A stretch of DNA of 64,000 bases from Trypanosoma brucei (Eukaryota): assembly GCA_000002445.1 (NCBI GenBank), contig AE017150.2:1-64000 (forward strand), given 5' to 3'. The position numbers were made by a program, and so were the translations under genes. Shown here piece after piece: positions 1 to 38,254 of this stretch (positions are counted from its first letter, which is position 1; every line of letters starts with the position of its first letter). The notes under the pieces are model-generated. The model searched no databases, was not told where the DNA came from, and saw only the letters and a program-made list of their open reading frames with translations.

Positions 1-1682
1 GAATTCCCTATCGCTCAAATGTTTTAGTCCTCAGTAACATTCACTTTGCTATTCTATTGGCTCCTGAAACCAATGCCATGATGTACGGATGGCTTTGTGT
101 GTGGGAACTGCAATAAAAATAAGAACAATAATAATAATTCCTTTCACCAATGAGTTTACTATTGGTTGTGAAAGTGCTCTTGGTGTCACTCCATTATTCT
201 TTTTGAGTCCCCAGCTGTTGAGAGCCGCTGTATTTTTTATTTAAAGAGTGATGCACCGTTTTATTCTCCACCCCTTTCAGGTGAATTTCTCCTGCACGGT
301 TGATACTTTCCCATCGTAGAATGTTTCTCAAGGTGTTTCCTTTGTGAAGCTTTGGTTATGCTATAATTAAAGAACACTCAACTCCCTGCTTCAGGGACCT
401 GTTGTTGCATTTATTTCCCTTTAGTTGCTGCAAATTTGTTCACTTGACAAGTTGTAGTGCAATACTTCACTTGACCATATGTGTAACATCGTGTCTCGTT
501 GCTTTATAAAAATTCAAAAAGAACACATCAGGTGATATTCTTCTGTTCTTACTTCGTACATTCACATCTCTTCCCGTCAGTTCGGAAACTCCCACACAAA
601 CTCACCACTCTGTGAAGATTTGTAATTTCTGTTAGTGATGGGCGTACTGAAGTGGGAATGTTTGGCACTTCAAAAACTAAGTTTTTTAAACTTACACCTT
701 CCTTCTTGCATACAGCTTCAGTGCGAGAGTAAAAGAATAGTTGAGTATTATGAGAAAACATAAGCCCAAAACATTCTCAATGCAAGTTTTCAATAAAAGC
801 AAACGCATTAAGATGGTTTATTGAACACATGCAGTATAATCCCTAGCAAAGGTATTATTCACACCCAATAAACAACTCAAACAAATAACACCACCATACA
901 TATCGCAGACATATAAGTTGCACCTGCACAAATAAATAAAGGCTGCTGTAACTCATCATGTGTAAAATATTATGAGCACAAAAACATAAATGTCCTTGAT
1001 CTTCCATGAATGTATAACACAATATTATTTTGCATTATCATCGGAAAAAAAATGTATATTGATATATATATTCAGCTAAAAGTCAAGAGTGAGCTCTGGC
1101 CTTGTAGAACTGTAAATGCGTGCATGTTCTGATATTATTGTTTCCCATTTTAAAATAAAGATACTTGCAGATGTGGAGAAACGTCTCCCTTAATGCTTAT
1201 GATGCACCAAATAATTCTCTCGCAAAGAAAGGAGCGAGCAAATGCTCAGTACACGTGTCCCTATTTGTATCTTTCAATGAAGGTTCTCTTGAGTGGAGTA
1301 AAGAAAAAAACAAATAAAAAGCAAGAAGTATATGATGTAAGAGATAATACATAATGAAATGACCCAACAAGAGGGAAAGGAAGTTACATGCCTTCACTAC
1401 AGTCATACAAATAAAGCCAGACCCTTCACACTCGTTTTACAATGTTCTGTCGTATCGCTCTGTATAAACAAAAAATTACTAATAGGAAATGGAAATGTAA
1501 GAAGAGAGTAAAAAAGTATCAAGTAGCTTGAGGATTATCGACACTCAGCTACGTGGAATGATACGCATCGCAAATTTGTGTTTGAAATGCTCACCATCCT
1601 AATGAACTTACTCGTATGTTACTTAATCCTAGGAAATACTTCTCTGTTCGCTCAAGTTACCTGACAACTTTCCTTCCGCACC

Positions 1683-4172
1683 CTATGCATTGTTACCACC
1701 TCTATTGTTAACTCCGTTGTTATTGTTACCTCTTGCTTTCAATTCAACGTATAGTGCAGTAATGTGGTTACTAAGAGAAACTGAGAATTGACGCACCTCC
1801 TGTTCCCAAAACCTTTTTTCACCTTCATTATCTTGTCCATCTTCTCTGTTGGTCATGCTGCAAGGTTGTGGTTTCGTAATTTTTTCGCTATCAACCCTTT
1901 GAACATATATTATTTCCCATACCATATCATTGGAAAAATTGTCCCAACCTTGGAAGTAACTTCGCAAATACCTTTTCATCTTCAATAACCCTCCGACGCT
2001 GCAGGGATGTTTATCGGAAATTGTGAATTGTAGTCCCACAAAAGTCTTCTGGTTCTCAACAAAAAAGAACGCATCAACAACTGGGAAACTCCTTGATTGC
2101 GGCTTGTACAATTTCATGTATTGAATTTCAGCTCCAGCTACAATTGGAACATCCTCAGGAACCTCAATCGAAGGACCAATGAGTCTTGGTTCTTGCAGCA
2201 CCTGCAGCACACTTTGTGGAATTTGATTCCTAGCAAATGAGAGGCCCTGCAACTCCCTTGCCAACTCAATTAGCGTATCCTCATGCGACAGTGCTTCAAT
2301 GCCACTCTTCTCAAACAGGTGGGCAGTGAGAGCGCGGTTAGACAGCAAAGCAGACATTGCAGCATATTTATTCAGTAACCAAGGTCTCAGAAAGTCTAAA
2401 ATAGCTTGTCCCGTGTAAGATGAAAGCGGTCTGCAGCGATACGTATCACTCAGAAGCTCCTCCTCCTTCACTCGAACAACCCTCACCAACTTGTGTGATG
2501 CTTTGTCTGTTTGCCACATAGCTGCGTTTTGGAAAATTTCTGCGTAATCATTCATATATGTATCATTCAATTTGTTAATGTATCCCCGAATTAGTGTCCA
2601 CTGACTGTCATACGAAACCAAATTACCTATATGACGAAGCAGTGGACCAACGAAAAGAATTCGACCTTGAATTTCTTGCCATTCTCTTTCAATTTTCTCT
2701 TTCGCAACTGGAGGACTCCAACCGTAAGCAGGAGCAATTTTCCCCCACCTCGATATGTGTATGGCTTCCAAATCCTTCAATGTATCACAGTTTATGTAAA
2801 TATGTGAGGCGGTGTTTTGCTTGGACCATTCATGGAATTGTCTAACGTTTGGAGAACTCAAAGCAATACCGGCACAACCAACAGGTGGTTTCACTGGAGC
2901 ATGATGGTCCTTGTCCACGTCGAATATGAGGTATCCCTTGATATCCTCACCGCTACTCGAATCTCTGACTATTTGCTCAACAACTGTAAATGCATTCTCA
3001 TAATTACTGTAAAACGTAACATATCCTGCTCGACCACCTATGGGTTTGTGAAACACGTACGCCTTACCCCTCACAACGTATATGATAATCTGAAGTTGAC
3101 TCGCTTCATAATGCAGTAGTTTGTATAACAGTAGGGATCCCACGGAAAAGGATTTACCAATACCAGGCGTACCAATAACAACATGAAACATCGGATTGAT
3201 AGCCACTTCACCCATAAGCCACTGGTTAAGCCGTTCCTTAACCTTATGCCACACCCTCAGTGTTTCCCTGCGGATATAAACATCACTATTAAAAACGTAC
3301 CCCACTCCCTTCTTGTGATTAATATCATAATCATTTGGGTTCTTTTCGAAAGACGTGTATGGCCAACCCACTTGAGATGTGAGTACCGCAATCTCCAAGT
3401 TACCGTGACGAGGAAGTGGTTCGTTCATAGTTTTCGGAACGTGACTTACATCAACTTCCTCCTTCGTCCACATGCGCGGCGGTCTTCCATCGAACACTTT
3501 CAATCCAAGTGGCTCTTCATCATAGCCCGACATCACATAGCTCCATTTCGCATTGCAAATGGAATCATACAATCCTCTCAGTTCGCTACCATCAGCTGCT
3601 AGGACAGCTCGCTTTTCCGCTCTCTTGGCGGCTATCACTGCAGCATCCAACCTTCCCCTCGCCACGGGACCAACAAATTCCCTTATTTCCACTGTCCCCT
3701 TCTCCTCCCACTGACTGAGGGTGCTAATTTCCTTTTCGTCAAGATACCTTGCTTTCCGCTTCATTTCAGAGAATTGGTTATATAATTCTTTATATTCCTC
3801 AAACTCATCAAGCCGCTGTATCCTTTCTAGAATCCTGGCATCCAAAATATAATCCCGTGGGCTTTGAACAAACACATCCATGGCCACATTCTCTGTGTTA
3901 TACGTGTTTAAAAACTTTTTCAGCAAAAAGTCATGCAGCGTCATATTACGCAAACCCGCATAATCTTCCAGCAGCACATTCCTCACCTTACTATCCATTG
4001 TCCAGTTGGGCCTCTCTTCAGTTCTCTGCCGTATTTGTGGAGGCTGAGCAGCAGCAGGCGGTGGCGGTACATTTTCATCCCGCGGTCTCCTCACGGCTGC
4101 TCCAAAATTATCTGCCACTTGTTGGTTTGCATTATTTCCTTGTGGAGCTGCGGGACTATTTGCCCTTGACAT
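1683..4172 (-). CDS. RHS: Retrotransposon hot spot (RHS) protein, 829 aa, intact
   Basis: Long minus-strand ORF; ATG confirmed at 4170-4172. P-loop IGTPGIGKS, LEIAVLTSQVGWPY, VYIRRETLRVW, WEIIYVQ; N-terminus MSRANSPAAPQGNN...PPPPAAAQPP. 5'-flank ~90% identical to 55836..58340 and protein ~90% identical to its product. Confidence 0.9.
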   Translation of the reverse strand: MSRANSPAAPQGNNANQQVADNFGAAVRRPRDENVPPPPAAAQPPQIRQRTEERPNWTMDSKVRNVLLEDYAGLRNMTLHDFLLKKFLNTYNTENVAMDVFVQSPRDYILDARILERIQRLDEFEEYKELYNQFSEMKRKARYLDEKEISTLSQWEEKGTVEIREFVGPVARGRLDAAVIAAKRAEKRAVLAADGSELRGLYDSICNAKWSYVMSGYDEEPLGLKVFDGRPPRMWTKEEVDVSHVPKTMNEPLPRHGNLEIAVLTSQVGWPYTSFEKNPNDYDINHKKGVGYVFNSDVYIRRETLRVWHKVKERLNQWLMGEVAINPMFHVVIGTPGIGKSFSVGSLLLYKLLHYEASQLQIIIYVVRGKAYVFHKPIGGRAGYVTFYSNYENAFTVVEQIVRDSSSGEDIKGYLIFDVDKDHHAPVKPPVGCAGIALSSPNVRQFHEWSKQNTASHIYINCDTLKDLEAIHISRWGKIAPAYGWSPPVAKEKIEREWQEIQGRILFVGPLLRHIGNLVSYDSQWTLIRGYINKLNDTYMNDYAEIFQNAAMWQTDKASHKLVRVVRVKEEELLSDTYRCRPLSSYTGQAILDFLRPWLLNKYAAMSALLSNRALTAHLFEKSGIEALSHEDTLIELARELQGLSFARNQIPQSVLQVLQEPRLIGPSIEVPEDVPIVAGAEIQYMKLYKPQSRSFPVVDAFFFVENQKTFVGLQFTISDKHPCSVGGLLKMKRYLRSYFQGWDNFSNDMVWEIIYVQRVDSEKITKPQPCSMTNREDGQDNEGEKRFWEQEVRQFSVSLSNHITALYVELKARGNNNNGVNNRGGNNA

Positions 4173-7165
4173 AACTCTCTTAATATTATTAACTTAACTT
4201 CCTTTCCTTTCCTTTTTTCTCTGAAATTATAAATAACTGAAGTAAAATAATAGATAAGAAAACAATAGCGGGTGAACAGTGTAACACAATATCAAATGTA
4301 ATAGAGGAGGATAATGTTTACTCACTATAGTTTGTATAATATGATATCATAGTGCATTTGGTATTGAGAGGAACAATTTCAAAATATAGCAGCTGTATAA
4401 ATATTTCCCTTGCTTCATTATTATGTGCTAAATATAATGAACTTCATACATCATTTCTTTTTAAACCATGAATAATATGGAAACAAAAAATATTACTGCC
4501 TCATACACCTGCATCAACACTACGTATATATAATCAATATTTAAAGAGAGTCAAATTCTATCAATTAAAATCAAGTAAAACAATAAACAAAAAAATATAT
4601 GGATATTAATGAAGCGAAGAAAAAGAGTATCGGCACAACATATAGATATACACACACATGAATACGCACTACACAATTGCTTCTTTGTATATCCTCCCCA
4701 TTTTTACAATACGTAACATTCAGTTTCACTGATAAACTCATTGAAGTTGAAATCACTTATCCCCTCCGCCGTGTATTCACTTACTTCTAAAGGAGAATAT
4801 TAAATAATGTCTGTAGGACAGGTAAAAAAAAACTGATAGTCTTTTTGCATCAGATAACCAGAAGGTATTTCTGTTTACTTTCATAATAAACAAAAACATC
4901 ATTTTGCCCTCAGTAGAAATAAAATTGAATTACTTGCCTCCTCATTGCTCACAACTATCAACAACTAATTCAGCCCCACACATTCACATGAATCTTATGT
5001 GCCATCGTTGTTTGATGAATTCACACACCTTTTATAATGGTGATTGTAAAACATATTGTAAAAAATTGGAATAAAATTAACACAATTAATTGAGGAAACC
5101 GTAAAAGATTATCATAACATATCTTTTATTTTCCCTCCTTTCATTTACGCAAATTAAATATGTAATGATACAATTCCCTTTCAGTACGTGTCCACACCTA
5201 TTGTATCATCATTGTAAGTTTCCTATTGCTCACATACACGAAGCTATTGGAATAACAAAAACATAAAACAACACATTGAAACAACTTAAAAATATATAAC
5301 AAATAAAGGTAATAAAGAGAATAAGCGTGAACTGACAGATAATAAAATGAAACACGTTTCGCACTTTCCTTATAAATATTCAATAGTTGGTGGATTACAA
5401 ATAAAAACAATTACACATTATAGAAAGGAAGGGATATAATTACATTATACACCTGCATGTGGATATGTAACAGTGAGTCATAGTAGAAATAAATTGACTA
5501 AACACAATAGTTATGGAAGATAACATAATTCAAAATATCAAAAATATTATTCTATCAACATTCCCTTCCTTCTCCATTAAGTTTCCAATGGTTTCAAATA
5601 ATAATTCACATAATTCCATACATATGTTATGACGGGCATTGCATGCAGTACAATTGAAAGAAAGTGCAACTCATATAACATTTTCAAAAAAAAAAGGTAT
5701 TGAATGGTTGTTTGCTACCATCAATTACATTTCCAATGCCTGATTACACTTTTATATGCATGAAGGAAGTTACTGATCATAACTTTAACATGCTCGAGAA
5801 TCCATAACACAAAGCGACCGCTGCATGCAATTAAAAAAATATAAATATAAATAACATCCGAATTCATTTACTGACAGATGAGTGCAAGTCATTCATCCAA
5901 ACTTCATAGCTGCAAACATAAACTCGTTGTTGCCAATAGGAAATAATAGCGCATAAATATTGAGTATCTGAAAATGATAGCAACGGGTTTCCATCTTTGA
6001 AATATATACATAAACTACATGAGGTATATGAAGCCATATTGGTAAAGTGTCACTACGCATGTTGCAATTTACTATCAAAAGTGTCTGCCTTATTTTATTT
6101 CTTGTGTTACTGTAACTCATGAGTATTATTCATTATTCTTTACAATACAACTGTAAGTCATTTTGCATTTTTTTACATATTTCCTTATTCCCTCATACTG
6201 GAAGTATTCCACATATAATATTCCTCAATATCGTTCACAAAATAAAAATAATTTCATTTACTTCTGCATTCAGTTTCTCGTGTAGCAGTGTGCACTAATC
6301 ATCCATAAAGTTTTTAATTTGCCAAATACATCATTACGAAACTATTTTCCACAAATAAACAAACAAACAAATCATTGGGACAATATCTTTGAGATATTTC
6401 CTTCACCATATTCGCAGTTCAGTAGTGATTAAAAGAAACTTTCTGTATAATTCAACACATGGTGGAATTGCAAAGAAATGTGATGGTACTTATAATCAAT
6501 AAGTTCCCAATTTTCCTCACATGGTCTCCTTTTTATGCCTTTACATCCTTATATAATTCACAGAGAATTACTTCAATTTCTTTCATATGCTTTCAGGATT
6601 CCATATGTCACAACACAAATAATATATATATATATATATATTTACACATATATATAATTTGGACATAATATTGCTTAACATATAAATTATCACAAACCTA
6701 TGATATTACACTCTTCCTAAGAATAATAGAATCAAATTATTTCTATTTTGCATCATTACATGAAGCTTTGGAAAATGGAAAAAAAAAGAATCAAACAAAA
6801 GGTAATGTAAAGAACACAGTTTCATAATACAGATTATAACTTGTTTGTGAGTGTCAGATGCAAACACAAAATGTTCAAACAGGGAAACAGTAAAGGATGT
6901 TACTGGTGATGTAAGCACAAATTAACCAAAAATAGAAACATAAATAAAATTTAAAACTTGTAAAAACACAAATATATATGATACAAATATTTACCACATA
7001 TTATAATTCGCCACCCTCACACTTGAATTATAAAGAGTACATAACACACATATGTGGTAAAACTAATACAACTCGAATATACATATGTGACATCTTCTTA
7101 ACATAATCATTCCAATATTTACTCAGTATGTATGTCTGTGTGTGTGTAGAAATGATGAAATGTAA
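4173..7165. repeat. AT-rich RHS 5'-flank repeat unit, copy 1 (family A; other copies at 32760-35000, 38255-41135, 49300-50800, 58341-60540, 63769-64000)
   Basis: Long shared blocks, e.g. aactctcttaatattattaacttaacttcctttcc immediately 5' of each RHS ATG, agtcaaattctatcaattaaaatcaagtaaaac, and catgctcgagaatccataacacaaagcgac. Contains a (TA)n tract at 6622-6641. Confidence 0.85.
6622..6641. repeat. (TA)n microsatellite
   Basis: aatatatatatatatatatatattt. Confidence 0.9.
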
Positions 7166-10100
7166 TCGGCAGTCCCTTGACTCGGAATGCGGTATTAACA
7201 TGTCTCAGATTTTAAGCATTCTTGTTCTACAAGGGAAGTCATTCGCCTATTTTTTCCTTTTTGCGGAAACAAAAAATAAAAAGAAGAATTCAGGGGTTGT
7301 AGCGGATAACTAGCTTTTTGAATCGTAGCAATATATTATGAAGCATGTACCACAGTCTACTCAGTATTTTTTTTATTATTATTTTTTTTGACTTCCTCTG
7401 ATTTCATTATCTTTCGTCCATGTTTATAAATGATACTTTTGAAAGTTATAACAAGAAACTAACTCGTATTTTTAGTCACTAGCTTCACAGTTCTAAATTT
7501 CGCAATTGTACCATGGCAAAATATCATTCTTGCTTCTTATTTTATTGAAGAGTTACTCTCGTAGAAGAAAGCAGGATGAAAATACTCAAGACTTCACCAA
7601 CAGGGGCCAGACATCCTTCAAAAAAGAACGAACAAAGAAGTTAACCACGCAACCCTTCTTACAAATGAGAGTGCCAATATATATACAAAACAACACGACT
7701 CTTCAACTGCACGCAACACAGGAAACGGTATCAGCGCCTCCAATCCCACAGTTAAAGCCACTTGACGAGACACTTGGAATACGAGACCCTTGCAAAGCAA
7801 TGTATTGGTTATTGAAAGAAAAAGAAAACGTATTCCTTCAGGTGCTGTTTCAACAAACTGCTAGCCTAGAACTAAGAGTATCAACACACATGCATGTGAT
7901 ATCCACGCGTCGAATATTTGCTGTCCAGCTGACTCCAAACTCACAAAGAGGAAACCAGACGTAACCACTTACAGATCAGCCGCTAGTGTCCTTTAAGTGC
8001 ATACAAATACACAACAGCAATCATTGTCACACTACTAATTTTAGGCATCATTTAATGCACATTTAACAAACATGATGCCCGACTCCAAATGTGAAAGGCA
8101 CTTGTCACGCCCGCCTCCCTCCAATTCTACAGGATGGTGGAAACGGAGCGGCAAAGAAGCGGCGCGGCGCTGTTAAAATAGAGCAGCTGCGCATCAGTTG
8201 CATTGAGTTTGTGGAATGCGGAGAAACCACCAGTTGAGCTTCGAGAGTGAGGGATGCCTCCCATAGAGTCGTGGCGGCAGAATATGATGAAGACGTCACG
8301 AATCTTTTTTCTTTTTGCTGCACCCTCCCGAAATGCGTTGAAACGCCAAGCGCTACCGTCACCCCCAGAGCAAAAACGTTGGGGAGAAAAAGCGAAACAA
8401 TGCGTGGGTTGTGGCGCTGAAACCGCAATTACCAACTGGCAAGGTGGATGGACCGCGACATGTGAGCGTGAAAGGGGAGGCATCGCGATATGTTTGTGGA
8501 ATGTGGGGAAATGTAAGAAAAGAGACCACTAAATATGATAACGATGTCAGAGCAACGAATATGAATGGCGTACAATTCCGTTTAGAAACACTGTCTGGAA
8601 ACTCTGTCCGTAAAACAACAACCGGCAGCGCCGACGAATTAAGGACAGAGGGCTGCGGGATGCCAGCCAAAAAAAAAAAAACCAACAACAGGCCACAGCG
8701 ACCCCAAATCAGAAAGTCTACATAAAAGTAACCAAATACACGCAGCTCAAACGCTCAAATGCCGGATACGCAGCAGGTGACACGGCGGAAGGAATATTAT
8801 CCGGCGCTTGGAAGCATGTCACCACCGCAACGACTCCTCAGAAACTGGACAGCTTCAAGTTTGGAGTGGCGGTTTGCATATGAACGCGGTGAGTGTCAGA
8901 AAAGGGGTGAAAGGCACAGCGGGAGGAACGGCAAAGTAAAAAAGGCAGGGAGGCGGTGCCAAGACTCCCGAGCAGCTATCCGCTAAAACCTACGGCATAT
9001 GACATGTTTGGTATGGCGGCACAGCGCAGTAGGAACTGTTGCAACGGATCAGACATGACTGTTATAGCCCCGTCACTGCCTTCGGAGACTTTTTCAAACG
9101 AAAGGAAAGAGAGTGATGCTGACGTGTGCAGAAGTCTGAAGGCATTATATCAGCGAGGTCTGTGGTGACTAAAAGCCTGAGTTGGATGCATGGTTGGAAG
9201 GGTGGTGGATCTTGCGAATAGTTGAAAGTAGGGTGCCTGTACTTTATTTCTCATATACTCGTGTGCTCCGTATACAAAATATAAGTGAGAAATGGAGCCA
9301 ACAAACGCGCCAGCAAAGTGGATGTGTTCCTTTGCAATGTCCAGACAATTCGTACTAAGACTCTTAAAGCTACTGGACCGAAGGAACCTCACGACCATGT
9401 GCAGCCGGCAAACGCACGAAAATGGAGAGCTGGCCGGCATTTCACCCTCCACTCAGCAGTTGCTCTCAACTGGAATATCGGGATTATGGATGGTGCAGAA
9501 AGCTCACCATTTTGTGGATTCTTCTGAATAGCAATGGAATCTGAAGGTTAACCCAAAGAGTTAAAACATTGAACAGGCCTGGTGACCCACATGGTCTTTT
9601 TTTGTGTGAAAAATGCCGGGCTGCGTTACTGCATCCCTTCGCGTGCATGCAAACTGAGCACAACCCAATGTCTCCTTTATTATTTGAAGCATGAAAGCTC
9701 ATGGATCATAGCCATGTGACATAACGCCTTGATTACGTTAGACTGATAGGACCGCTGTGTATTTTTGTCGTTTATGTTGGGATGTGCATTTGATAGTAGC
9801 ATCTGCTAGTGTACAATCATTCTAGTGAATTTGGCACATTACAGTGATTTCTTTTGAGAGTTTCTCTTCCCCCTCACTCTGAGTAAATGTGGGGTAACTG
9901 GTTTCTTTTCTGACGTTAACATGGTTTGCCAGCTCTGTTTGGAAATGTTACGGTATCATCACGCACAGTTTCGAAAATTGTCTGTAAAGCTGCTTTGAAT
10001 CCATGTTGCGGTTGTCACGAATCAGAAAAATGATAACGGAGACGGGTCTGCAAAAAGGCATTGTGAGTAAGCGACAATACTGCGTATCAAATAATGTCAC

Positions 10101-11830
10101 ATCACGATGATTACAGTGCTGCTTCACAACTTCAGCATAGGGGAATGGCGGAATCGTTTCAAATGCGGAACAAATAATGAGAGTCCAAATCTCCCTCTTA
10201 AATTCCCGTGTCCGCATAAACTGTATGCAGGTGAAACATTTCTTTCAAGGAAACTGTATTTACGAGACTTAATCCAAGGAGAGATTAGGAATGCAGATAC
10301 TTCATGCCTTCAATGAACAGTCGTACATCAGACCTGTCAACTCCATTAAGTGACTGAGGAGTTAACCTATTGTAAGGTGTATGGACATGGAGACATGGTT
10401 GGAGCAACCAACAGCCAGTATTCAGTACAGTTGGCTTATGTGAAACCAAAACATATGCATCCGTGTATGTTCAACCTGACAGCTTCGCGTACCCTTTTGT
10501 TAAGCTGTACGACACTCTTCCAGGTGTATACAACAAAATACAGTTATATGCATGACCTTGAGAATGAGGATGGTAGTCTACAGGAAGCATGCGAAACAGG
10601 GAAAATATATATTGAGCTGATCTGAATCCATTTGATGCAGAATGTAAGAGCGTTAACCCGGCTGATATTTTCGTATTAACCGACATACTAAAGAATGATT
10701 TAAGAAGCAGGAAAAAGTTGATCCAAACTGCATTTAGCCTGGAGTTATTTCCAATGCTCCTAGATAATATTGTGTATGATCCGTATGGGGGTTCATTACT
10801 TTTTGAGGGAGTATGAAGAAGGATGAGGAGCAGAAACTGTTCGGAAGATGACAATATTTACGATTCTTATTATTAGGTTGACATCCTTTTTGTGATGCCT
10901 TAACGGTTTAGTATGTATGAGTGCTTTACACTCGTTTTATTTGAACACAAACTGATGCATGAACAAATGCCCATTGCCAAGCTTCTTATAGAGATATTTC
11001 AATACCTGAAAAAGGGACCGGGACGCAAAGTTTGGGAATGGAATTTCCCCGCCCGTAACGCTGATTACATAAGACGATCAATCAACACATTTCCGCCTGT
11101 CCACAGTTAATCGGAAACCGTAGTGCCCATATGTCTCCCTAATTACTGTTGTCCCTTCAGTTTTCACAGTAGATGTTTCAATTGGTTTCTACGGCCGAGC
11201 TAAATAAAGCGTGTGTGTCATATCGTGGAGGTGTTTCCATGTGTCTTCGCTTTCCGTTTTGTCACTGCGTTTGGGCTCACGCAGTGACATTAATTGAAAA
11301 TTCAGGCCACTACCATAGATGGGTGGCTCGCGGAGAGAGTGAGGATTGGGATTATTCTAACGGCTTTGTGGTTGTGTGTCCCGTGCCTTTGGAAAATATT
11401 GCAGCCAATGAAAGGGAAGGCAAGTGTCACCTTGCTTTCCATGCTGCGACATCAATGCATCACGATTTTATGCTAGTTGCCCTGCGAGGGAAGGCCGTGA
11501 AGGCGAAGGTTAGCTTCCGGTTTAAGGAAATGTAGAGACTTCCTGATACTACTGTCAGAAACTACTGTTGCTGCGTGCTCCAGGCACTGGGTCAGTAATT
11601 CATAAATACAACAACGAGAATAAAATTAATCCCTTGTGGCTGCTAAGCGTGTAAGCAACTGAGAATAATAAACAGTATATTTTTGCCACACCTTATTGAT
11701 TTCTATATATATATACAAAACAACCTCATTACAATTATCATTTCTTTTGTGCCCAAAGGCTGCTGAATGAAGGTTAGGATTACTGACCATAACACATTTT
11801 GGCATGCACCTCAATTACTTCCTTATAACA

Positions 11831-11846
11831 CTTCCCCCCCCCCCCT
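11831..11846 (+). promoter_or_regulatory. Polypyrimidine (C12) tract, candidate trans-splicing signal upstream of the LRRP ATG
   Basis: cttcccccccccccctcg lies ~90 nt upstream of ATG 11937, with AG dinucleotides downstream (e.g. cttAGctc ~11868). Trypanosomatid trans-splicing uses a polyY tract plus a downstream AG. Confidence 0.45.
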
Positions 11847-11936
11847 CGTTTGATTCATCGCTTAGCTCTATTATTAAAAAAGAAAAAGCATTTCCTCAAC
11901 ACTCAGCACCTCAAGGAATCGGAAACGGGAACTACA

Positions 11937-14900
11937 ATGTCAGGAAACCAAGGAAGAAAGCGACAGCGCATCTCATCACCTGAGCAGTCAGAAGCTTTAA
12001 AGGAACCATCAACTACTGAACAAAATAAACTCACCACCGTTACAATCACCGAAGAGACGCGTGACGCCAGTAATGATGAAACTGTGGTATCATTACTGAA
12101 TGAGCATGAGAAATTGATTAAACAAACGACACGGCTGGAAAGCAGTGTGAAGGCACTTAGGTGTTTCATGAGTAATCTCACAGCTATGAGTGGCGAAAGG
12201 CAAGGTGGTGTGTGTGATGACACCGAATGCATACATAGAGTAACGTTATATAATGCTGCTGATAATGCCTTCAGTGACGAAGGACTATATGAAGGTGCTC
12301 TTTCCTCACTCTGTGGCCGCATTCAAGCTAAGAAATTAACCATCACGTTATCAAAGGGTGGGAAACTTAACTTAAAACGAGTCAGTAAGCTAAAGCAGTT
12401 AGAAGAGTTACGCATTGAATATCCGCGTGGAAAACTTGTGAATATCATATCTTTGAATAACCTTGATATGTTGAAAAGGCTTTGTCTCAGGAGCAACAAT
12501 GTTGACAACAATGACGTTTGCCATTTATTCAGTGTTGGAACATTGGAAGAGTTGGCTATTACTGACACCATGCAACTGACAAATATCAGAGGAATCTCTC
12601 GCTTGACTAACCTGATGTGTCTTGAGTTAAATTCCACAGATATTGATGATACCTGTATAGGGGAAATAAGTGCATGTGCTAAACTGTCCAAATTGAGTGT
12701 ATCCGAATGCAACAATATCACGGATGCAACCCCAATTTCACAGCTTGCAGCGCTTGAAGAGTTGAATCTAAACAGCTGTTACCACATAACGAAGGGAATA
12801 GGAACACTTGGCATGTTGTTACGATTGCGTATGCTTGACTTGAGTGGTGTTCCTGTGGAAGATAATTGTCTGAAGGATTTGTGTGACTGTGGATCGCTTG
12901 AAAGGCTGAACATTTCTTATTGTATTCAGCTGACAGATATCAATCCACTCTCCAATGCCACTGCTATTGAGGAATTGAACCTTAACGGTTGTCGCCGAAT
13001 AACAAGGGGGATAGACGTTGTGTGGGCATTACCAAAGCTCCGTGTATTTCACATGAAGGATGTGCACCTGAGCGAGCCATCTCTCGATTCAGTTGGGACT
13101 GGTGGATCACTTGTAAAGGTCAGTCTTGATAACTGCGCAGGCTTTGGTGATATGTCACTCTTATCCAGCATTGTTACACTCGAGGAGCTGAATATTCAAA
13201 AATGTGCTGACATCATTAGTGGTGTGGGTTGCCTTGGTACACTACCGTACCTGCGTGTGCTTAACATAAAGGAGGTACACATCTCGTCCCTTGACTTTAC
13301 TGGTATTGGTGCCTCAAAATCCCTTTTACAGCTCAATATGGAGAGTATCACGGGACTGAGTAATGTGGAAGCACTCGCCAACATTTTGACTCTGGAAAAA
13401 CTAAGCCTTCACGGCTGCACGGATATTGACGCTGGAATTGGATGTCTCGGAAACCTGCCACAGCTTAAAGTGTTGGATCTGTCTGGCACAAATACCGACA
13501 ATGAGTCTCTCAGAAGTTTATGCCTATCGCAGACAATGGTGTCCCTCAACCTTTCCCATTGTTGGAAAATGACAAATGTGTCCCATATTTCAAGCCTTGA
13601 AGCATTGAATGAACTGAATCTGAGCAACTGTATTAGGATAAATGCAGGATGGGAAGCACTTGAAAAACTTCAGCAGCTACATGTGGCAATCCTCTCGAAT
13701 ACACATATTACTGATAGAGGCATATCCTATTTTAGCAAGTGCAAAAACCTTGTTACGCTTGATCTTTCTTTCTGCAATAAGTTACTTGATGTTACAACTC
13801 TCTCCAACATCACTACGCTTGAGGAGTTGAATCTTGATAGTTGTTCAAACATCAGAAAAGGGCTGAGCGTTCTTGGAGAGTTGCCACGGCTTTGTGTGTT
13901 GAACATAAAGGGTGTACAGTTGGAAGACTCAGTTATTGGTTCACTAGGGAATGGTAAATCACTTGTAAGGCTCAGTCTTGAGAATTGCAAAGGGTTTGGT
14001 GATGTCACGCCTCTCTCGAACCTTGTTACACTTGAGGAACTGAATCTCCACTACTGTGACAAAGTAACCTCTGGAATGGGAACACTGGGCAGGCTACCGC
14101 AGCTTCGTGTACTGGATTTGGGACGGACACAAGTTGATGATAATTCCCTTGAGAATATCTGCACAAGCTCAATCCCACTTGTGTCATTAAATTTTTCGCA
14201 TTGCAAGAAAATAACATCTATTTCTGCAATAGCTTCCCTTACAGCATTGGAGGAACTCAACATTGACAACTGCTGTAATGTAACATCCGGTTGGAATGTA
14301 TTTGGTACACTTCACCAACTGCGTGTAGCCACACTGTCAAACACACGCATTAATGATGAAAAAATACGGCACGTTAGCGAGTGCAAGTCTTTGAATACAC
14401 TCAACCTTGCGTTTTGCAAAGATATAACAGACGTCACAGCACTTTCTAAAATTACTATGCTTGAGGAGTTGAACCTTGATTGCTGCCCTAACATCAGAAA
14501 AGGTATTGAAACTCTTGGAACGCTTCCCAAGGCACGTATCCTAAGCATGAAGGAATGTTACATGGGAGACGGATATGCGCAACAATGTTCCATCCTTGGG
14601 AATAGTAAGTCACTTGTGAAACTGAATCTTGAGAGGTCAAGAGGGCGCATATCTGTGAAAGCTCTCTCTGACATTGCGACGTTGGAGGAGTTGGTACTTG
14701 ATCATGCACGGGAAGTATGTTGCATACCGTCATTTTCCTGTCTACCGCGCCTTCGAGTACTGAATCTGAAATATACGGATATCAATGGTGATGCAACTAA
14801 AAATATTTCCGAATCAAAATCGCTGCGATCACTCAACTTATCACATTGTAAATGGGTAACTGATATATCAGTATTATCTTCCTTATCGACACTGGAGGAG

Positions 14901-16118
14901 CTGAATGTTAACTGCTGCAATGCAATACGAAAAGGCTGGGAGTCGCTCGGGAAGCTGCCTCTACTACGTGTAGCAATTCTATCTGATACTAACATCACCG
15001 CTAAAGATATAGCTTGCCTTAGCAGTTGCAAAAAGCTGGTGAAACTAAAGTTTTTTCGGTGTAAGAAGTTGTCAGATGTTACGGTGGTGTATAAAATTCA
15101 ATCACTGGAGGAGCTGATAGTTAAGAACTGCTCAGGCGGCCTCAAGGGACTGAATGCCCTTGGTACACTTCCACGGTTGCGTTTTCTCCATCTGCGAAAT
15201 GTGAGTGGTAGTGATATATCTGTTGAATCTATTGGGACGAGCAAATCTCTCGTGAGGCTTAATATTGAAACGCGCGAGGAGTTAACAGACACAACACCCC
15301 TCTCCAACATCACATCCCTTGAGGAATTGTCATTGCGGAAATGCGGTAATAATCTGGAAGGAGTCGGAACACTTGGGAAACTGCCACGGCTTAGATCGCT
15401 GTATCTGGGTTTATCTCGCATTAACGATAGCACACTTTATTATATTTGTCTGTCTCGATCAATTACGTCACTTAACCTAGCCTCCAGTTGGAAACTAACA
15501 GATATATCTCATATATCAAAGCTTACGGCACTGGAGGAATTGAATCTGAGAGGATGTTACCCCATAACTTCAGGCTGGGAAGCACTAAGCGAATTACCAC
15601 GACTTCGTGTGCTCAACTTGGAATCCACCAGAGTTACGACCCGTTACGGTGGATATTATATCAGAAGATGCAAATCCCTCGTCACACTCAGCCTTGAATC
15701 GTGTGATATGACCGATGCTTCATGTCTTGCTAATATCAAGACACTGGAGGAGTTGCATATAGGGAGATGCAAAGAGCTAAGGTGGGGGTTTAGTCCACTT
15801 TTCACTCTTCCGCGGTTGCGCATTCTTAACTTGATTTGTTCTCTCATTACAGATGAAGACCTCAGGGAAATTCAACCACCCCATACCATTGAGGAGCTCA
15901 ATCTCTCTTATTGTGAGGAGCTCAATGATATTACACCACTTGGGAGAATAAAATCAATTAAAAAATTGCATCTCCGTCAGAGCCATGATGCCAGAAGGCC
16001 TACAGAAGGATTCAGAAGTCTTTTGGAGTTGCCGTGTCTTTCTTGGGTTGACCTAAACAACGTGTACGGCTGGTTTGATGTTTCTTGTGAACTGAGAAAA
16101 AGGAGGGTACATACCTAA
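11937..16118 (+). CDS. LRRP: Leucine-rich repeat protein (LRRP / ESAG8-like), ~1393 aa from first ATG
   Basis: Uninterrupted 4.2 kb ORF of ~24-aa LRR units (LEELNL..C..I..G...LG.LP.LRVL.L) grouped into higher-order ~5-repeat supermodules. The ORF-track start at 11850 is TTG; the first ATG is at 11937 and follows a C12 polypyrimidine tract (11834-11845). Stop TAA at 16116-16118. Confidence 0.85.
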   Translation: MSGNQGRKRQRISSPEQSEALKEPSTTEQNKLTTVTITEETRDASNDETVVSLLNEHEKLIKQTTRLESSVKALRCFMSNLTAMSGERQGGVCDDTECIHRVTLYNAADNAFSDEGLYEGALSSLCGRIQAKKLTITLSKGGKLNLKRVSKLKQLEELRIEYPRGKLVNIISLNNLDMLKRLCLRSNNVDNNDVCHLFSVGTLEELAITDTMQLTNIRGISRLTNLMCLELNSTDIDDTCIGEISACAKLSKLSVSECNNITDATPISQLAALEELNLNSCYHITKGIGTLGMLLRLRMLDLSGVPVEDNCLKDLCDCGSLERLNISYCIQLTDINPLSNATAIEELNLNGCRRITRGIDVVWALPKLRVFHMKDVHLSEPSLDSVGTGGSLVKVSLDNCAGFGDMSLLSSIVTLEELNIQKCADIISGVGCLGTLPYLRVLNIKEVHISSLDFTGIGASKSLLQLNMESITGLSNVEALANILTLEKLSLHGCTDIDAGIGCLGNLPQLKVLDLSGTNTDNESLRSLCLSQTMVSLNLSHCWKMTNVSHISSLEALNELNLSNCIRINAGWEALEKLQQLHVAILSNTHITDRGISYFSKCKNLVTLDLSFCNKLLDVTTLSNITTLEELNLDSCSNIRKGLSVLGELPRLCVLNIKGVQLEDSVIGSLGNGKSLVRLSLENCKGFGDVTPLSNLVTLEELNLHYCDKVTSGMGTLGRLPQLRVLDLGRTQVDDNSLENICTSSIPLVSLNFSHCKKITSISAIASLTALEELNIDNCCNVTSGWNVFGTLHQLRVATLSNTRINDEKIRHVSECKSLNTLNLAFCKDITDVTALSKITMLEELNLDCCPNIRKGIETLGTLPKARILSMKECYMGDGYAQQCSILGNSKSLVKLNLERSRGRISVKALSDIATLEELVLDHAREVCCIPSFSCLPRLRVLNLKYTDINGDATKNISESKSLRSLNLSHCKWVTDISVLSSLSTLEELNVNCCNAIRKGWESLGKLPLLRVAILSDTNITAKDIACLSSCKKLVKLKFFRCKKLSDVTVVYKIQSLEELIVKNCSGGLKGLNALGTLPRLRFLHLRNVSGSDISVESIGTSKSLVRLNIETREELTDTTPLSNITSLEELSLRKCGNNLEGVGTLGKLPRLRSLYLGLSRINDSTLYYICLSRSITSLNLASSWKLTDISHISKLTALEELNLRGCYPITSGWEALSELPRLRVLNLESTRVTTRYGGYYIRRCKSLVTLSLESCDMTDASCLANIKTLEELHIGRCKELRWGFSPLFTLPRLRILNLICSLITDEDLREIQPPHTIEELNLSYCEELNDITPLGRIKSIKKLHLRQSHDARRPTEGFRSLLELPCLSWVDLNNVYGWFDVSCELRKRRVHT

Positions 16119-16388
16119 TAATATTTGATCCATTGTTTCACTTTGTATTATTGTAACAACTTATTGCTGAGAACACGTTACTAAATTTAACAGCCAGTTC
16201 GAGTGGTTCGCTCACTGTAGGCACTATTACTCAAACAGATACCAGTAACAATTCACATGGATGATATTGTATGTTACACTATATTAAATACGAGAAATAC
16301 GAGGATTTCATTACGGTTATTTAAGTGCTTCGTATTTTACTAAGTCATACCAATCATATGTTGTGAAGAATAAAGAACAGTTAGGAAA

Positions 16389-16405
16389 GTGTGTGTGTGT
16401 GTGTA
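16389..16405. repeat. (GT)n microsatellite in the LRRP 3' region
   Basis: agtgtgtgtgtgtgtgtatg. Confidence 0.9.
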
Positions 16406-19400
16406 TGCACAAGGCTTTTTTCTCAGTGGAAATTTGTATTTTAGTTGCAAGCGTAGTAATTATTGTATTACGCTCATTTATGCTACAACCATGTCAATTG
16501 AATATCTCATTTCTTGTATGTTTTTCTGTCTTTACAGCTACATACTCTCACCCAAATGTCGAATGAAATATTATCGTTATTATTATTATTATTTCTATCG
16601 TTCTTATTGTTATTACGTGAAACACAACATTCACATTTAATTTTTACTCATAACGACACCCGAAAAGTAAAAGCACTCAACATTCTGCAGTACTGTATAC
16701 CTGTCAATGATATGAGGAGGTGAAGTTTATATACCATTAAAGTATGGTGAATATATTTCATTATTATTATTATTATTTGTTTTACTGAAAGAAATGACAG
16801 AGTGACTTTACAATAAATTATATCAGAGCAGCATGTTGTGCACCAAGTTCTTACATGGGAAACGATAATAAAACACATTACGTGTCTCGTGATTCTTTTT
16901 TACATTTGCTGCTGGCAGATACATATTCTCAAACAGTGTAATCGAATCCCCTTGTTTCATTAAAATATTTTAAATTATTTTATTTATTTTTGTAATAACA
17001 TAATTTATTTTACTACATTTCCTTTCAGAATTATTTGGGCCAAACTTTTGTAAAGATGTCATACATTCCGAATTCCCTTGCACAGCAAAGGGTTGTGTAC
17101 CGCCTTAACCCATTAACATTTGTGCTACTTGTGCATGGGAGAATGTAGTAACCATTTCACTGGCTTTGGGAACTATTATTTTCTTACAACATGATGCCTC
17201 AGAAGAACTGAAGGCGAGAGCAAATCCTTTCATTCATTTTATTTTCCTTTTCTTACCGTATCCGTATATGTTTATTACTTTCCAGAAAATACTGCTGAGG
17301 TAAATTATGTATTTCTTCATATTTACTTTTTATTTGACAATAACAAGAAAAGGATTTCCTCCTCACACACTTAAATTAATTAGACACTGCTGTTAGCTGA
17401 TAAGTTATGGACAGCCGCACATTTAAGTTACACAAATCCACACCGATTCGAAATAGTAAAATATCAAATATTATGTATTTATTTGAGGAAAAAAAAAGAG
17501 ACGAAAAGAAGCGCTGCATCTGAAGCAAGATGCATGTGAAATCGAAGAACAACTGTCATTTGAATATCATATCCCCAAATTGTTTTGATTACATTATTAG
17601 CAGTAAATGCTTACGGAACTTGGGAAGTGAATGACTACTGAAATTAAAAGCATGAGGACGCATTGCGATGACACATGAGAGAAACATGGGTGGGATTTTT
17701 ATATATTGGAAAGTGGAGTGGCTTTAAGGTATTTTACATGATGTTTAGTTGGAGATTGAAATACTTCAGAAAATAGTGAAAGAGTGTTATGATACAGGAA
17801 TCTTTTCGTTTACTAATTTCAAGCGGACTTCCACGACGCACTATTTTCGGTTTACATTGCAAGAAGTGGTATGATATATGCAACCGCTTATTTCTTATTT
17901 ATTTTTTGTGAGTTTATATAAGTGTGGTTTGGTGACGTGGAAAATTTTAGCATATGGTTAATGTCTTTGTGACAAGCAACTGCTCTGCTCGAGCTATGGT
18001 ATTGGAAGGTTAAATATAAATTATATGTTTTATGAGTTATCAAATGCTGAATGCTTCAACTGACTCACTCTTCAAACCAAAACACTTTCTCAGCTTTTCC
18101 ACTCTGAGCTAAAAATGTAGTTCAGTTTCCAAACAGCACACCACATCTCATTCATTATCGGGTAAAGAGATATTTGTTGTATGGGCAACACGAAAGTGGA
18201 GAAGTGCAGAAAGTAGAAATAAAGAAATATATATATATATATCGAATTATGTTGGAACTGGAGGTATCATTCAACCTAAGAGCAAAAGCACCTTTCCTTC
18301 TGTTGTGAGCCGCAACCATGCCGTGACGAAGTTACAAGTGGAAGGAGTTGACTCAAATCATTCATCACCTAATATCTGTAATGTGAATATGTTTGTTGAG
18401 AGATATTCGTATGTTAATGAGAGACCATTATGCAGAGGGAAGAACAACCGACGACTGCAACCTAAAACCCGTAATTTGCGGACTGTGATAAACTTTAACA
18501 GTTTCATTTTATTATGTAAAGATGGCATCAGCAGATTACACTTGTAAGCTGTTTGAAGTCAAAACAACGATACACGGAAGGGAATGTGCAAGTGGTGATT
18601 TAAATCGTATGTTTATGAGAAATTTGTAGTGTGAATCAACTGTTGAAATATGTTGCGCGATATTAACAGCAGATGTTGTTTTTTTCATATTATTCTTTTT
18701 TTTTTTTTTTTACTTGTCTGTCGAACAATCTGAGGTTTAGTTGATATATTCCTGAGTTTCATCACATGTGTTTCTGTTTATATAATACTAATCGTTACAA
18801 ACTAAATATCTGCAGTAAGTATATTAAAAACATACGATTTGTCACCACCTCTTGCTTCATTTCTCTTTATTCAAACGGCACTTTCTTTTAATCTTGTAAA
18901 TAATTTTTTTATCGTTGTTTCATTTGTTTGTACCCTTCATCCTCTGCGCACGCTGCTGTATTTATTTGCTTCTACACGCTCGCAAAAAAAAAAAGAAAAT
19001 ATAAATTATTTTGAAACAAATACAGGTTGCGACTGATGTTTGTTCTGTTTGCGTCGTATTATAAGGGGAATGTAAGATTCGTTGATTAAACATTTCATGG
19101 CGCATCATTACCGAGTTGTTTGTCATGAATTCATAATTAACCATGAGACAGGTTTTTACGAGTCATACTCCCTGCATAAATGCAATGCACTGAAGGAATG
19201 TAATTTTATTTATTTTTTATTACTACCATTTTTATTGTCAGTATTAATATTCAGGTTTTCATCCATCACTATTTTATTATTTATATTTTCTTTCCAACAT
19301 CTGTTTCAAGCAACATGGTCGATTGGAAATAATGTAAACATCAATGGTTAGAGAAACTTTGATTTGCCTTGAGCGTGCAGATGCGCAAAGTTCAAAAGGT

Positions 19401-38167: not shown

Positions 38168-38254
38168 TGCTAATGCCCTATTGTCTCGTTGTCTAGCAAC
38201 TGCAAAATTAAAGTAACGTATGAGGAAAATAATAGTGTGTAAATAATGTAACAC

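What the first reader, a model, noticed from the sequence alone, without database searches (positions are those of the whole stretch)
7900..11800. GC-richer, non-repetitive island with overlapping ORFs on both strands in the divergent strand-switch region
Seen in sequence: between the leftward RHS (ends 4172) and the rightward LRRP (starts 11937) the AT-rich repeat gives way at ~7.9 kb to ~3.8 kb of clearly higher-GC sequence. It carries many 60-130-aa ORFs overlapping on both strands (8105-9530, 9948-11535). None has recognisable motifs or a periodic codon signal, and it is not one of the repeat families in this window. Inference: overlapping ORFs on both strands are a composition artefact, so this is probably non-coding. 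Candidates are a decayed gene or retroelement remnant (DIREs are GC-richer than flanks), or sequence associated with bidirectional Pol II transcription start in a divergent strand-switch region.
Basis: partly seen in the sequence, partly recalled or inferred. Interest (0 to 1): 0.5.

Follow-up and report, generated by a model that had tools for sequence, protein, structure and literature searches.

The report
Non-coding gap between diverging trypanosome genes
The GC-richer stretch is mostly non-coding DNA between two gene groups that point away from each other at the left end of Trypanosoma brucei chromosome 2; it is copied on chromosome 1, holds one small annotated ORF, and is ordinary.

Summary
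The window is positions 1-64000 of T. brucei TREU927 chromosome 2. Four gene starts match published splice-site tables exactly.

The composition change is real, but it begins at about 7.15-7.5 kb, where the RHS-upstream repeat ends, not at 7.9 kb.

From 7148 to about 11100 I found nothing coding:
- no Pfam, protein, Rfam or tRNA match;
- no codon bias and no 3-base periodicity;
- ORF numbers and lengths close to what the base composition predicts;
- indels between paralogous copies are mostly not multiples of three.

The ORF at 11173-11535 (+) is the annotated gene Tb927.2.160, a full-length Pfam DUF1181 match. It is restricted to T. brucei, shows no purifying selection, and gives no confident predicted fold.

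The island is unique within the window but not within the genus. A 16.1 kb block (3443-19548) is collinear at 93.6% with a T. equiperdum chromosome 1 locus.

No retroelement signal was found. The island fills the gap free of assigned splice sites between the leftward RHS1 gene and the rightward DUF1181/LRRP genes, and strand asymmetry switches at about 9.0 kb. The likeliest role is a dispersed bidirectional Pol II start region. That is inferred, not shown. The finding is ordinary and of low interest.

The parts
1683..4172 (-). RHS1 gene Tb927.2.100, the first gene of the leftward unit
   Evidence: Pfam RHSP, RHS_N and DUF7578. The published main splice acceptor at 4220 with a 48-nt 5'UTR gives ATG 4172. 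Named RHS1 in PMC6393297.
4173..7147 (.). AT-rich RHS-upstream spacer repeat, shared with the other RHS units of the window
   Evidence: Self-BLAST: 4258-7147 matches 38225-41104 at 92.5%, 1-6372 matches 54145-60547 at 91.7%, and 5600-7088 matches 49306-50773 at 94.8%. GC is 0.26-0.32.
6766..6800 (-). Polypyrimidine tract followed by AG on the minus strand; a probable splice acceptor of the spacer transcript
   Evidence: Near-identical to the sequence at 40726-40760. That lies just upstream of the listed, rounded start (40700) of published transcript Tb2.NT.70 (40700-38300, -). No reads are reported at this copy, so this is inferred by homology.
7148..11172 (.). The island: non-coding, unique in the window, and the core of the divergent strand-switch region
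   Evidence: No self-match. No Pfam match. No protein hit for any stop-free stretch of at least 30 aa in 7500-11172. No Rfam or tRNA match. No codon bias and no period-3 signal. Indels against L002 and L004 are mostly not multiples of 3. No assigned splice acceptor or novel transcript in procyclic data.
7500..9600 (.). GC-rich (0.42-0.52) core, purine-rich and T-poor on the plus strand; the strand-asymmetry switch lies at about 9.0 kb
   Evidence: Base composition of 8100-9200 is A .31, C .22, G .29, T .19. The cumulative G+T skew minimum is at about 8600-9000. GT-rich 10-mers dominate on the minus strand over 4500-9000 and on the plus strand over 9000-10000.
8669..8681 (+). A13 run
   Evidence: It is 2-4 nt shorter in the paralogs. 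No target-site duplication was found.
10944..10961 (.). Point where one T. equiperdum chromosome 1 copy carries a 6.3 kb insert holding a frameshifted GRESAG4 pseudogene
   Evidence: Window 7516-10961 matches L002 1-3457, and 10944-19548 matches L002 9773-18387. The insert holds an adenylate-cyclase fragment. L004 lacks the insert.
11173..11535 (+). Tb927.2.160, a 120-aa DUF1181 ORF (T. brucei-specific; coding status doubtful)
   Evidence: PF06680 positions 1-119 of 120, E 1.1e-72. 100% identical to XP_951475.1. dN/dS is 1.25, 1.08 and 0.74 against the three other copies. A 4-nt deletion breaks the frame in L004. Only 2 representative clusters turn up among 1.84 billion proteins. AlphaFold2 mean pLDDT is 37.
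11834..11866 (+). C12 polypyrimidine tract, AG, and the mapped LRRP splice acceptor at 11866
   Evidence: Sequence. One spliced-leader read is listed at 11866 for Tb927.2.170. Paralog Tb927.2.690 has 65 reads at the equivalent site, with a 72-nt 5'UTR.
11937..16118 (+). LRRP gene Tb927.2.170
   Evidence: LRR Pfam families. 100% identical to XP_951476.1. Period-3 z is 5-14. dN/dS is 0.37-0.59.
3443..19548 (.). Extent of the segmental duplication that contains the island
   Evidence: Collinear with L004 638-16754 (T. equiperdum chromosome 1) at 93.6% over 16.2 kb. The blocks shared with L002, L003 and L004 all end at 19548.

Best explanation
The island (7148 to about 11100) is the non-coding core of a divergent strand-switch region at the left end of T. 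brucei TREU927 chromosome 2.

Shown:
- RHS1 (Tb927.2.100) lies to its left and is read leftward.
- To its right a short rightward unit begins with the small DUF1181 ORF (Tb927.2.160, 11173-11535) and the LRRP gene (Tb927.2.170).
- The whole arrangement (RHS 5' end, AT-rich spacer, island, DUF1181, LRRP, and 3.4 kb downstream) is one 16 kb segmental-duplication unit. It is also present at least twice on T. equiperdum chromosome 1 at 92-94% identity.
- The many ORFs come from a T-poor, GC-richer composition. No frame is conserved between copies.

Inferred:
- Every mRNA in this organism is cut out of a long primary transcript.
- The first processing signals on the two strands lie at about 6.77 kb (-) and at about 10.98 or 11.87 kb (+).
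- RNA polymerase II therefore most likely starts in both directions inside the island, as a dispersed promoter without a defined motif. The turning point would be near 9.0 kb, where GT-richness changes strand.
For: Identity of the locus: published splice acceptor coordinate minus 5'UTR length equals the window ATG for Tb927.2.100 (4172).340 (48743).370 (58340) and .380 (63768).

Non-coding:
- The six-frame Pfam scan hits only DUF1181.
- No protein hit at E<=0.01 for any stop-free stretch of at least 30 aa in 7500-11172.
- tblastx and sensitive blastn find nothing against everything else in hand.
- The codon-usage score is flat, while LRRP stands out.
- Period-3 z is -1.4 to +1.3 from 7800 rightward and peaks at 3.2 at the left edge (7400-8000). 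LRRP scores 5-14 and RHS 15.
- ORF statistics are close to shuffles.
- 15 indels against L002 and 13 against L004 (7500-11172) are mostly 1, 2 or 4 nt.
- The majority consensus of three copies opens only 179 codons.

Duplication.

Start-region reading:
- Gene orientation is divergent.
- No assigned spliced-leader site or novel transcript lies between 4236 and 11866 in procyclic RNA-seq.
- A conserved minus-strand polyY-AG sits at about 6765.
- The same study lists a divergent pair of Pol II units flanking the chromosome 9 DUF1181/LRRP paralogs (Tb09.211.4920 on the minus strand, Tb09.211.4980 on the plus strand).
- The G+T skew minimum lies at 8.6-9.0 kb, and GT-rich 10-mers switch strand at about 9.0 kb. 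This matches the reported GT-richness on the coding strand of T. brucei start regions (PMC5579346).
Against: - There is no direct evidence of initiation here. Kolev et al. Table S14 lists no Pol II unit on chromosome 2 left of Tb927.2.1560.
- I could not obtain H2A.Z, H4K10ac or 5'-triphosphate data for this locus.
- The GT asymmetry is modest (G+T 0.51-0.57 on the right half), and there are no long G runs.
- The locus is multi-copy, so short-read maps may under-report it.
- RHS/LRRP regions are often treated as subtelomere-like (PMC5359979) and could be poorly transcribed.
- The GC-rich, purine-rich core has the composition of a T. brucei coding strand. Being a start region does not explain that.
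Confidence: 0.6

Rival explanations
1. The GC-rich core (about 8.0-9.6 kb) is the wreck of an old protein-coding gene on the plus strand. It decayed before the unit was duplicated and now has no function of its own. This could be true as well as the start-region role.
For: GC of 0.48-0.52 is like coding sequence and unlike the 0.26-0.32 spacer. The plus strand is purine-rich (0.59-0.62). In L002 two stop-free stretches (174 and 123 codons) share a frame and are separated by a single stop. The majority consensus of three copies lengthens the longest open frame from 127 to 179 codons.
Against: No Pfam or protein homolog. No period-3 signal (z about 0) and no codon-usage signal. Equally long open frames occur on the minus strand, and the longest open stretch is within the shuffle expectation. 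tblastx finds nothing against the neighbouring GRESAG4 pseudogene, RHS, LRRP or ingi-like sequence.
Confidence: 0.2
2. The island is a degenerate retroposon remnant (DIRE, ingi, RIME or SIRE) of the kind that litters RHS regions.
For: There is an A13 run at 8669-8681 after an A-rich, T-poor stretch. The setting is a retrotransposon-hot-spot gene array. The chromosome 9 paralog has an annotated 'Ingi-like sequence' ORF (Tb09.211.4940) just upstream of its DUF1181 copy.
Against: No RVT_1, Exo_endo_phos or RNase_H trace in any frame at E<=1. No similarity to the ingi 5' end in L002 or to the region upstream of DUF1181 in L001. No flanking target-site duplication. No other copy among the seven RHS units of the window. 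I had no DIRE, RIME or SIRE consensus to test directly.
Confidence: 0.05
3. The island encodes a non-coding RNA: either a structured small RNA or a long non-coding transcript with a function of its own.
For: Three-way variability is lower over 9216-10515, at 3-11 variable sites per 100 bp against about 14 to its left. One 120-nt window, 11228-11347, folds unusually well (z -4.65; z -3.75). Tb927.2.160 reads rise during RBP6-induced metacyclogenesis (PMC7952579).
Against: No Rfam hit at E<=1 and no tRNA. Folding z-scores across the island centre on 0 (mean -0.03, sd 1.02). The one strong hairpin lies inside the DUF1181 ORF, is perfect only in this copy, and carries uncompensated mismatches in L002, L004 and L001. 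No spliced or polyadenylated novel transcript is listed here in procyclics. The mosaic divergence pattern fits gene conversion.
Confidence: 0.07

Closest known systems
Divergent strand-switch regions / Pol II transcription start regions of T. brucei (dispersed promoters; Siegel 2009, Kolev 2010, Wedel 2017)
   Same: It lies between two gene groups that diverge. It is several kb long and has no defined motif. No assigned trans-splice site lies inside it. GT-richness sits on the respective coding strands and switches in the middle (PMC5579346).
   Different: No chromatin-mark or 5'-triphosphate evidence is available for this copy, and it is not in the published list of Pol II units. It sits in a repeated RHS/LRRP region rather than in the housekeeping core. 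The rightward unit is very short (about 10 kb).
Pfam PF06680 (DUF1181), T. brucei-specific hypothetical proteins found upstream of LRRP genes
   Same: ORF 11173-11535 matches the whole model and is one of at least 12 annotated TREU927 members. DUF1181 sits immediately upstream of an LRRP gene in the window, in L001 and in L002.
   Different: This concerns only the last 360 bp of the reported span. The family itself shows dN/dS of about 1, variable starts and stops (98-187 aa), no relatives outside T. brucei and no confident fold.
RHS/LRRP segmental duplications of T. brucei chromosome-internal 'subtelomere-like' regions
   Same: A 16 kb block is shared with T. equiperdum chromosome 1 at 93.6%, with mosaic divergence typical of gene conversion.
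   Different: The island is not part of the tandem RHS repeat unit of this window. It occurs only where an RHS unit abuts a DUF1181-LRRP unit.
ingi / RIME / DIRE retroposons
   Same: An A-rich strand and an A13 run, next to RHS genes.
   Different: No reverse transcriptase, endonuclease or RNase H remnants, no target-site duplication, and no similarity to ingi-derived sequence in hand.

Membership tests
Pfam PF06680 DUF1181 | Score above the curated gathering threshold over most of the model | tested here: met
   241.8 bits against a cut-off of 25; model positions 1-119 of 120; ORF 11173-11535
Functional protein-coding gene (applied to DUF1181 ORF 11173-11535) | Purifying selection and frame conservation between copies | tested here: not met
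   dN/dS is 1.25 (L002), 1.08 (L004) and 0.74 (L001), with mismatches by codon position 10/7/5. A 4-nt deletion is present in L004. Counts are small, so weak constraint cannot be excluded.
Functional protein-coding gene (applied to island 7148-11172) | Homolog, codon bias, 3-base periodicity, and a frame kept between copies | tested here: not met
T. brucei divergent strand-switch region / Pol II start region | Flanking genes transcribed away from each other | tested here: met
   RHS1 is on the minus strand with its start at 4172. DUF1181 and LRRP are on the plus strand from 11173 and 11937.
T. brucei divergent strand-switch region / Pol II start region | No RNA-processing (spliced-leader) sites between the first genes of the two units | tested here: met
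   Kolev 2010 Table S4 lists 4216-4236 (-) and then 11866 (+), and Table S7 has no novel transcript in between. The data are procyclic only, and only assigned sites are listed.
T. brucei divergent strand-switch region / Pol II start region | Mapped 5'-triphosphate transcription start sites | tested here: inconclusive
   Table S14 lists no unit on chromosome 2 left of Tb927.2.1560, but it does list a divergent pair around the chromosome 9 DUF1181/LRRP paralogs. Repeats may have hidden this locus.
T. brucei divergent strand-switch region / Pol II start region | Enrichment of H2A.Z, H2B.V, H4K10ac, H3K4me3 and BDF3 | not testable with these tools
   No ChIP-seq tracks were available. Siegel 2009 is not held, and the Wedel 2017 supplements have no chromosome 2 coordinates.
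T. brucei divergent strand-switch region / Pol II start region | GT-rich sequence on the coding strand of each diverging unit | tested here: met
   GT-rich 10-mers on the minus strand number 11-34 per 500 bp over 4500-9000. On the plus strand they number 10-26 over 9000-10000 and 15 at 11000-11500. The cumulative skew minimum is at 8.6-9.0 kb. The effect is modest.
ingi/RIME/DIRE non-LTR retroposons | Reverse transcriptase, AP-endonuclease or RNase H coding remnants | tested here: not met
   The six-frame Pfam scan at E<=1 finds none.
ingi/RIME/DIRE non-LTR retroposons | 3' poly(A) plus a flanking target-site duplication; the conserved 5' signature | tested here: inconclusive
   An A13 run is present, but no target-site duplication and no match to the ingi 5' end in L002. 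No RIME or DIRE consensus was available.
RHS tandem-array spacer repeat of this window | Sequence shared with the other RHS units | tested here: not met
   The shared repeat stops at 7147, and 7400-12000 has no second copy in the window.
Known structured RNA families (Rfam 15) / tRNA | Covariance-model or ARAGORN match | tested here: not met
   0 matches at E<=1 in 4000-13000, and 0 tRNAs in the window.

The most novel reading that the evidence does not exclude
The island is a sequence-defined bidirectional Pol II promoter module (or a stage-specific long non-coding RNA locus) that has been copied together with RHS-LRRP units to several chromosomes. The less variable 9.2-10.5 kb segment would be its functional core. 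The DUF1181 ORF would be a T. brucei-specific microprotein or an upstream regulatory ORF for LRRP expression during metacyclic development.
Probability: 0.1. Interest if true: 0.45.

Novelty: already known. Interest (0 to 1): 0.15.

Why it matters
It matters little beyond housekeeping.
- It fixes the identity of the window: the left end of T. brucei TREU927 chromosome 2.
- It shows that one ORF in the flagged span is an annotated, if doubtful, gene.
- It shows that the rest is an ordinary non-coding strand-switch region inside a segmental duplication.

If the start-region role were confirmed, the several 92-94% identical copies would be natural replicates. They could be used to ask which sequence features of trypanosome dispersed promoters are kept.

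Tried and rejected
It was replaced by all stop-free stretches of at least 30 aa, which gave no hits.
- The look-up of encoding contigs found no record for P0001, P0002 or P0011, so TREU927 itself appears not to be indexed. A protein from L002 could not be looked up, so I could not extend L002 to the left.
- The chromosome I and chromosome II genome papers and Siegel 2009 are not held.
- The supplements of Wedel 2017 and Tiengwe 2012 gave no coordinates for this locus.
- Tandem Repeats Finder found nothing in the whole window, so the 'AT-rich repeat' is an interspersed RHS-spacer repeat, not a tandem array.
- The bacterial-type promoter and terminator scan is irrelevant to a trypanosome and was ignored.
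- The 18-nt exact direct repeat at 7677 and 11707 was considered as a target-site duplication for a 4 kb insertion. It was rejected because there is no extended similarity around it, and the chromosome 9 paralog's homology starts at 11257, not 11707.
- The strong hairpin at 11259-11288 was rejected as a conserved RNA element because the paralogs carry uncompensated mismatches.
- AlphaFold2 on DUF1181 gave pLDDT 37, so no fold search was worth running.
- The minus-frame pseudo-dN/dS values are not independent, because of a frame bug in my script, and were not used.
Full report
**Where the window comes from.** The 120-aa ORF at 11173-11535 (+) is 100% identical to XP_951475.1, a 'hypothetical protein, conserved' of T. 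brucei brucei TREU927, on a 1,193,948-bp contig. The large ORF at 11937-16118 is 100% identical to the LRRP XP_951476.1 on the same contig. The published spliced-leader acceptor table of Kolev et al. 2010 (PMC2936537, Table S4) fixes the coordinates. For Tb927.2.100.340.370 and .380, the acceptor position minus the 5'UTR length gives 4172, 48743, 58340 and 63768. These are exactly the ATGs of the window's minus-strand RHS ORFs. The window is therefore Tb927_02_v4 positions 1-64000. The flanking genes are RHS1 (Tb927.2.100; PMC6393297), the DUF1181 gene Tb927.2.160 (PMC7952579) and the LRRP gene Tb927.2.170.

**Checking the observation.** GC is 0.26-0.32 from 4250 to 7500. It climbs to 0.42-0.51 between 7500 and 9750 and stays at 0.37-0.47 up to 11800. 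The AT-rich stretch is the RHS-upstream spacer, shared at 91-95% with the other RHS units of the window. That repeat stops at 7147, so the island begins about 0.4-0.75 kb left of the reported start. It is not a tandem array. The region 7400-12000 has no second copy in the window. The ORFs exist as described. In 7900-11172 there are 23 stop-free stretches of at least 60 aa, against 16.9 +/- 2.9 in block-wise dinucleotide shuffles. The longest is 133 aa, against 145 +/- 32 expected. The plus strand of 8100-9200 has only 19% T, which depletes stop codons in all six frames. The ORFs are therefore close to what composition predicts.

**Is anything coding?**
- A six-frame Pfam scan of 7400-12000 gives one hit. 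ORF 11173-11535 matches PF06680 (DUF1181) end to end, with E 1.1e-72.
- All stop-free stretches of at least 30 aa from 7500-11172 were searched together against 5.8 billion proteins and gave no hit at E<=0.01. Short decayed fragments scoring below about 45 bits would be missed at that database size.
- A codon-usage log-odds trained on the window's RHS and LRRP genes separates the LRRP frame clearly. It shows no preferred frame anywhere in 7500-11100. The DUF1181 frame is only slightly favoured.
- Period-3 power is at shuffle level in the island, with z between -1.4 and +1.3 and one blip of 3.2 at 7400-8000. LRRP gives z 5-14, RHS gives 15 and DUF1181 gives 1.9.
- No Rfam family at E<=1 and no tRNA.
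- Folding z-scores of 228 windows centre on zero.

**Related sequences elsewhere.** Loci encoding DUF1181 and LRRP relatives were fetched.
- L004 (T. equiperdum chromosome 1) is collinear with window 3443-19548 at 93.6%. This block covers the RHS 5' end, the spacer, the island, DUF1181, LRRP and 3.4 kb beyond.
- L002, a second chromosome 1 copy, matches 7516-10961 (92.0%) and 10944-19548 (93.9%). Between the two it carries a 6.3 kb insert holding a frameshifted GRESAG4 adenylate-cyclase pseudogene.
- L003 (T. equiperdum chromosome 2, at a contig end) matches from 11842 onward.
- L001 (T. b. gambiense; the orthologue of Tb09.211.4950/4960) matches only from 11257.
- The blocks shared with L002, L003 and L004 stop at 19548; L001's stops near 17090.

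The island is thus one part of a multi-copy segmental duplication. Divergence between copies is mosaic. For example it is 0.8% for window against L004 at 9250-9499 and 13% at 10750-10999, which is typical of gene conversion. Within the island there are 15 indels against L002 and 13 against L004 (7500-11172). Most are 1, 2 or 4 nt, and no long frame is shared. A majority consensus of the three copies lengthens the best open frame only to 179 codons. tblastx and sensitive blastn of the island against every other sequence in hand gave nothing. That set included RHS, LRRP, the GRESAG4 pseudogene, the start of an ingi element in L002 and the remaining flanks of the four related loci.

**The DUF1181 ORF.** The family has at least 12 annotated members in TREU927, on chromosomes 1, 2, 4, 7 and 9 and on one further 1.62-Mb chromosome. 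They are 83-90% identical, with variable starts and stops (98-187 aa). An exhaustive HMMER search of 1.84 billion representatives finds only the two T. brucei clusters. dN/dS is 1.25, 1.08 and 0.74 against L002, L004 and L001, with no third-position excess. LRRP in the same copies gives 0.37-0.59. The L004 copy has a 4-nt deletion. AlphaFold2 gives mean pLDDT 37. Kolev et al. list three paralogs (Tb927.2.940, Tb927.4.150, Tb09.211.4950) among ORFs without a detectable transcript. Tb927.2.680 has 3 spliced-leader reads, against 78 for its LRRP neighbour. Reads over Tb927.2.160 rise during RBP6-induced metacyclogenesis, together with RHS genes. It is a bona fide Pfam member and an annotated gene, but the evidence that it encodes a functional protein is weak.

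**How the island most likely works.**
- Shown: the genes on either side diverge.
- Shown: the published procyclic data list acceptor sites at 4216-4236 (-) and next at 11866 (+), with no novel transcript in between.
- Shown: the 11866 site follows a C12 tract and an AG.
- Inferred by homology: a minus-strand polyY-AG at about 6765 is nearly identical to the sequence at 40726-40760, just upstream of the listed start of transcript Tb2.NT.70. A DUF1181 acceptor should lie near 10980-10995, from the 182-199-nt 5'UTR of Tb927.2.680.
- Inferred: transcripts of both strands must therefore begin within roughly 6.8-11.0 kb, which is the island.
- Compositional support: G+T content favours the minus strand up to about 9.0 kb and the plus strand after it. 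The cumulative skew minimum is at 8.6-9.0 kb. GT-rich 10-mers number 11-34 per 500 bp on the minus strand from 4500 to 9000, then 10-26 on the plus strand from 9000 to 10000. Wedel et al. 2017 report GT-rich 10-mers on the coding strand of T. brucei start regions and show that they drive directional initiation.
- Support from a paralog: Kolev et al. also list a divergent pair of Pol II units around the chromosome 9 DUF1181/LRRP copies.
- Not shown: initiation at this copy. Table S14 has no unit on chromosome 2 left of Tb927.2.1560, and I had no chromatin data.

**Rivals.** A decayed gene would explain the coding-like GC and purine skew of 8.0-9.6 kb, and it is compatible with the start-region role. 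However, nothing but composition supports it. A retroposon remnant has only the A13 run in its favour. A non-coding RNA gene is not supported. The one strongly folding element (11259-11288, inside DUF1181) is perfect only in this copy and is not compensated in the paralogs.

**Verdict.** The composition step and the ORFs are real. The island is non-coding, belongs to a known type of RHS/LRRP segmental duplication, and is most plausibly an ordinary divergent Pol II start region. There is nothing here a trypanosome specialist would find surprising.

Noticed in passing
window 10944-10961; L002 3458-9772: One T. equiperdum chromosome 1 copy has a 6.3 kb insert with a frameshifted GRESAG4 adenylate-cyclase pseudogene exactly here. 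This gives the order GRESAG4 pseudogene, DUF1181, LRRP. From my own knowledge, that echoes the ESAG4-ESAG8 order of VSG expression sites. The two insert edges share an imperfect 'AACACAAAC..TGCAT' motif.
   Followed up: partly
window 7677-7694 and 11707-11724: An exact 18-nt direct repeat, ATATATATACAAAACAAC, 4030 bp apart, brackets the island plus DUF1181. There is no extended similarity around it, so it is probably low-complexity chance.
   Followed up: yes
window 11259-11288 (+), inside the DUF1181 ORF: A perfect 11-bp inverted repeat with an 8-nt loop. The 120-nt window 11228-11347 folds with z -4.65. The paralogs have uncompensated mismatches. Homology with the chromosome 9 copy (L001) begins at 11257, right at this hairpin.
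   Followed up: yes
window 19548: The blocks shared with L002, L003 and L004 all end at this same position. Just to the right lies a strongly purine-rich stretch (19600-20400, purine 0.63-0.69). The published novel transcript Tb2.NT.67 (17348-20603, +) spans the boundary.
   Followed up: no
window 7400-8000: A weak period-3 signal (z 3.2) coincides with ORF 7506-7964 (+, 152 aa). The frame is broken by 1- and 2-nt indels in L002, and no homolog was found.
   Followed up: partly
window 9216-10515: This 1.3 kb segment has about half the three-way variability of the left half of the island (3-11 against about 14 variable sites per 100 bp). It has no indel against L002 between 9109 and 10197. The cause could be constraint or recent gene conversion.
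   Followed up: partly
window 22747-23886 (-): A 379-aa ORF with C2H2 zinc-finger matches lies between the rightward LRRP unit and the next RHS genes. Its 3' side (23805-24567) resembles the N-terminal regions of RHS genes.
   Followed up: no
window 1-64000: According to Kolev et al. Table S2, the left end of chromosome 4 starts in the same way: an RHS pseudogene at 1682-3133 (-), then a GRESAG4 pseudogene Tb927.4.130, Tb927.4.140, and DUF1181 Tb927.4.150 at 18000. This suggests that several chromosome-end assemblies share this unit.
   Followed up: no
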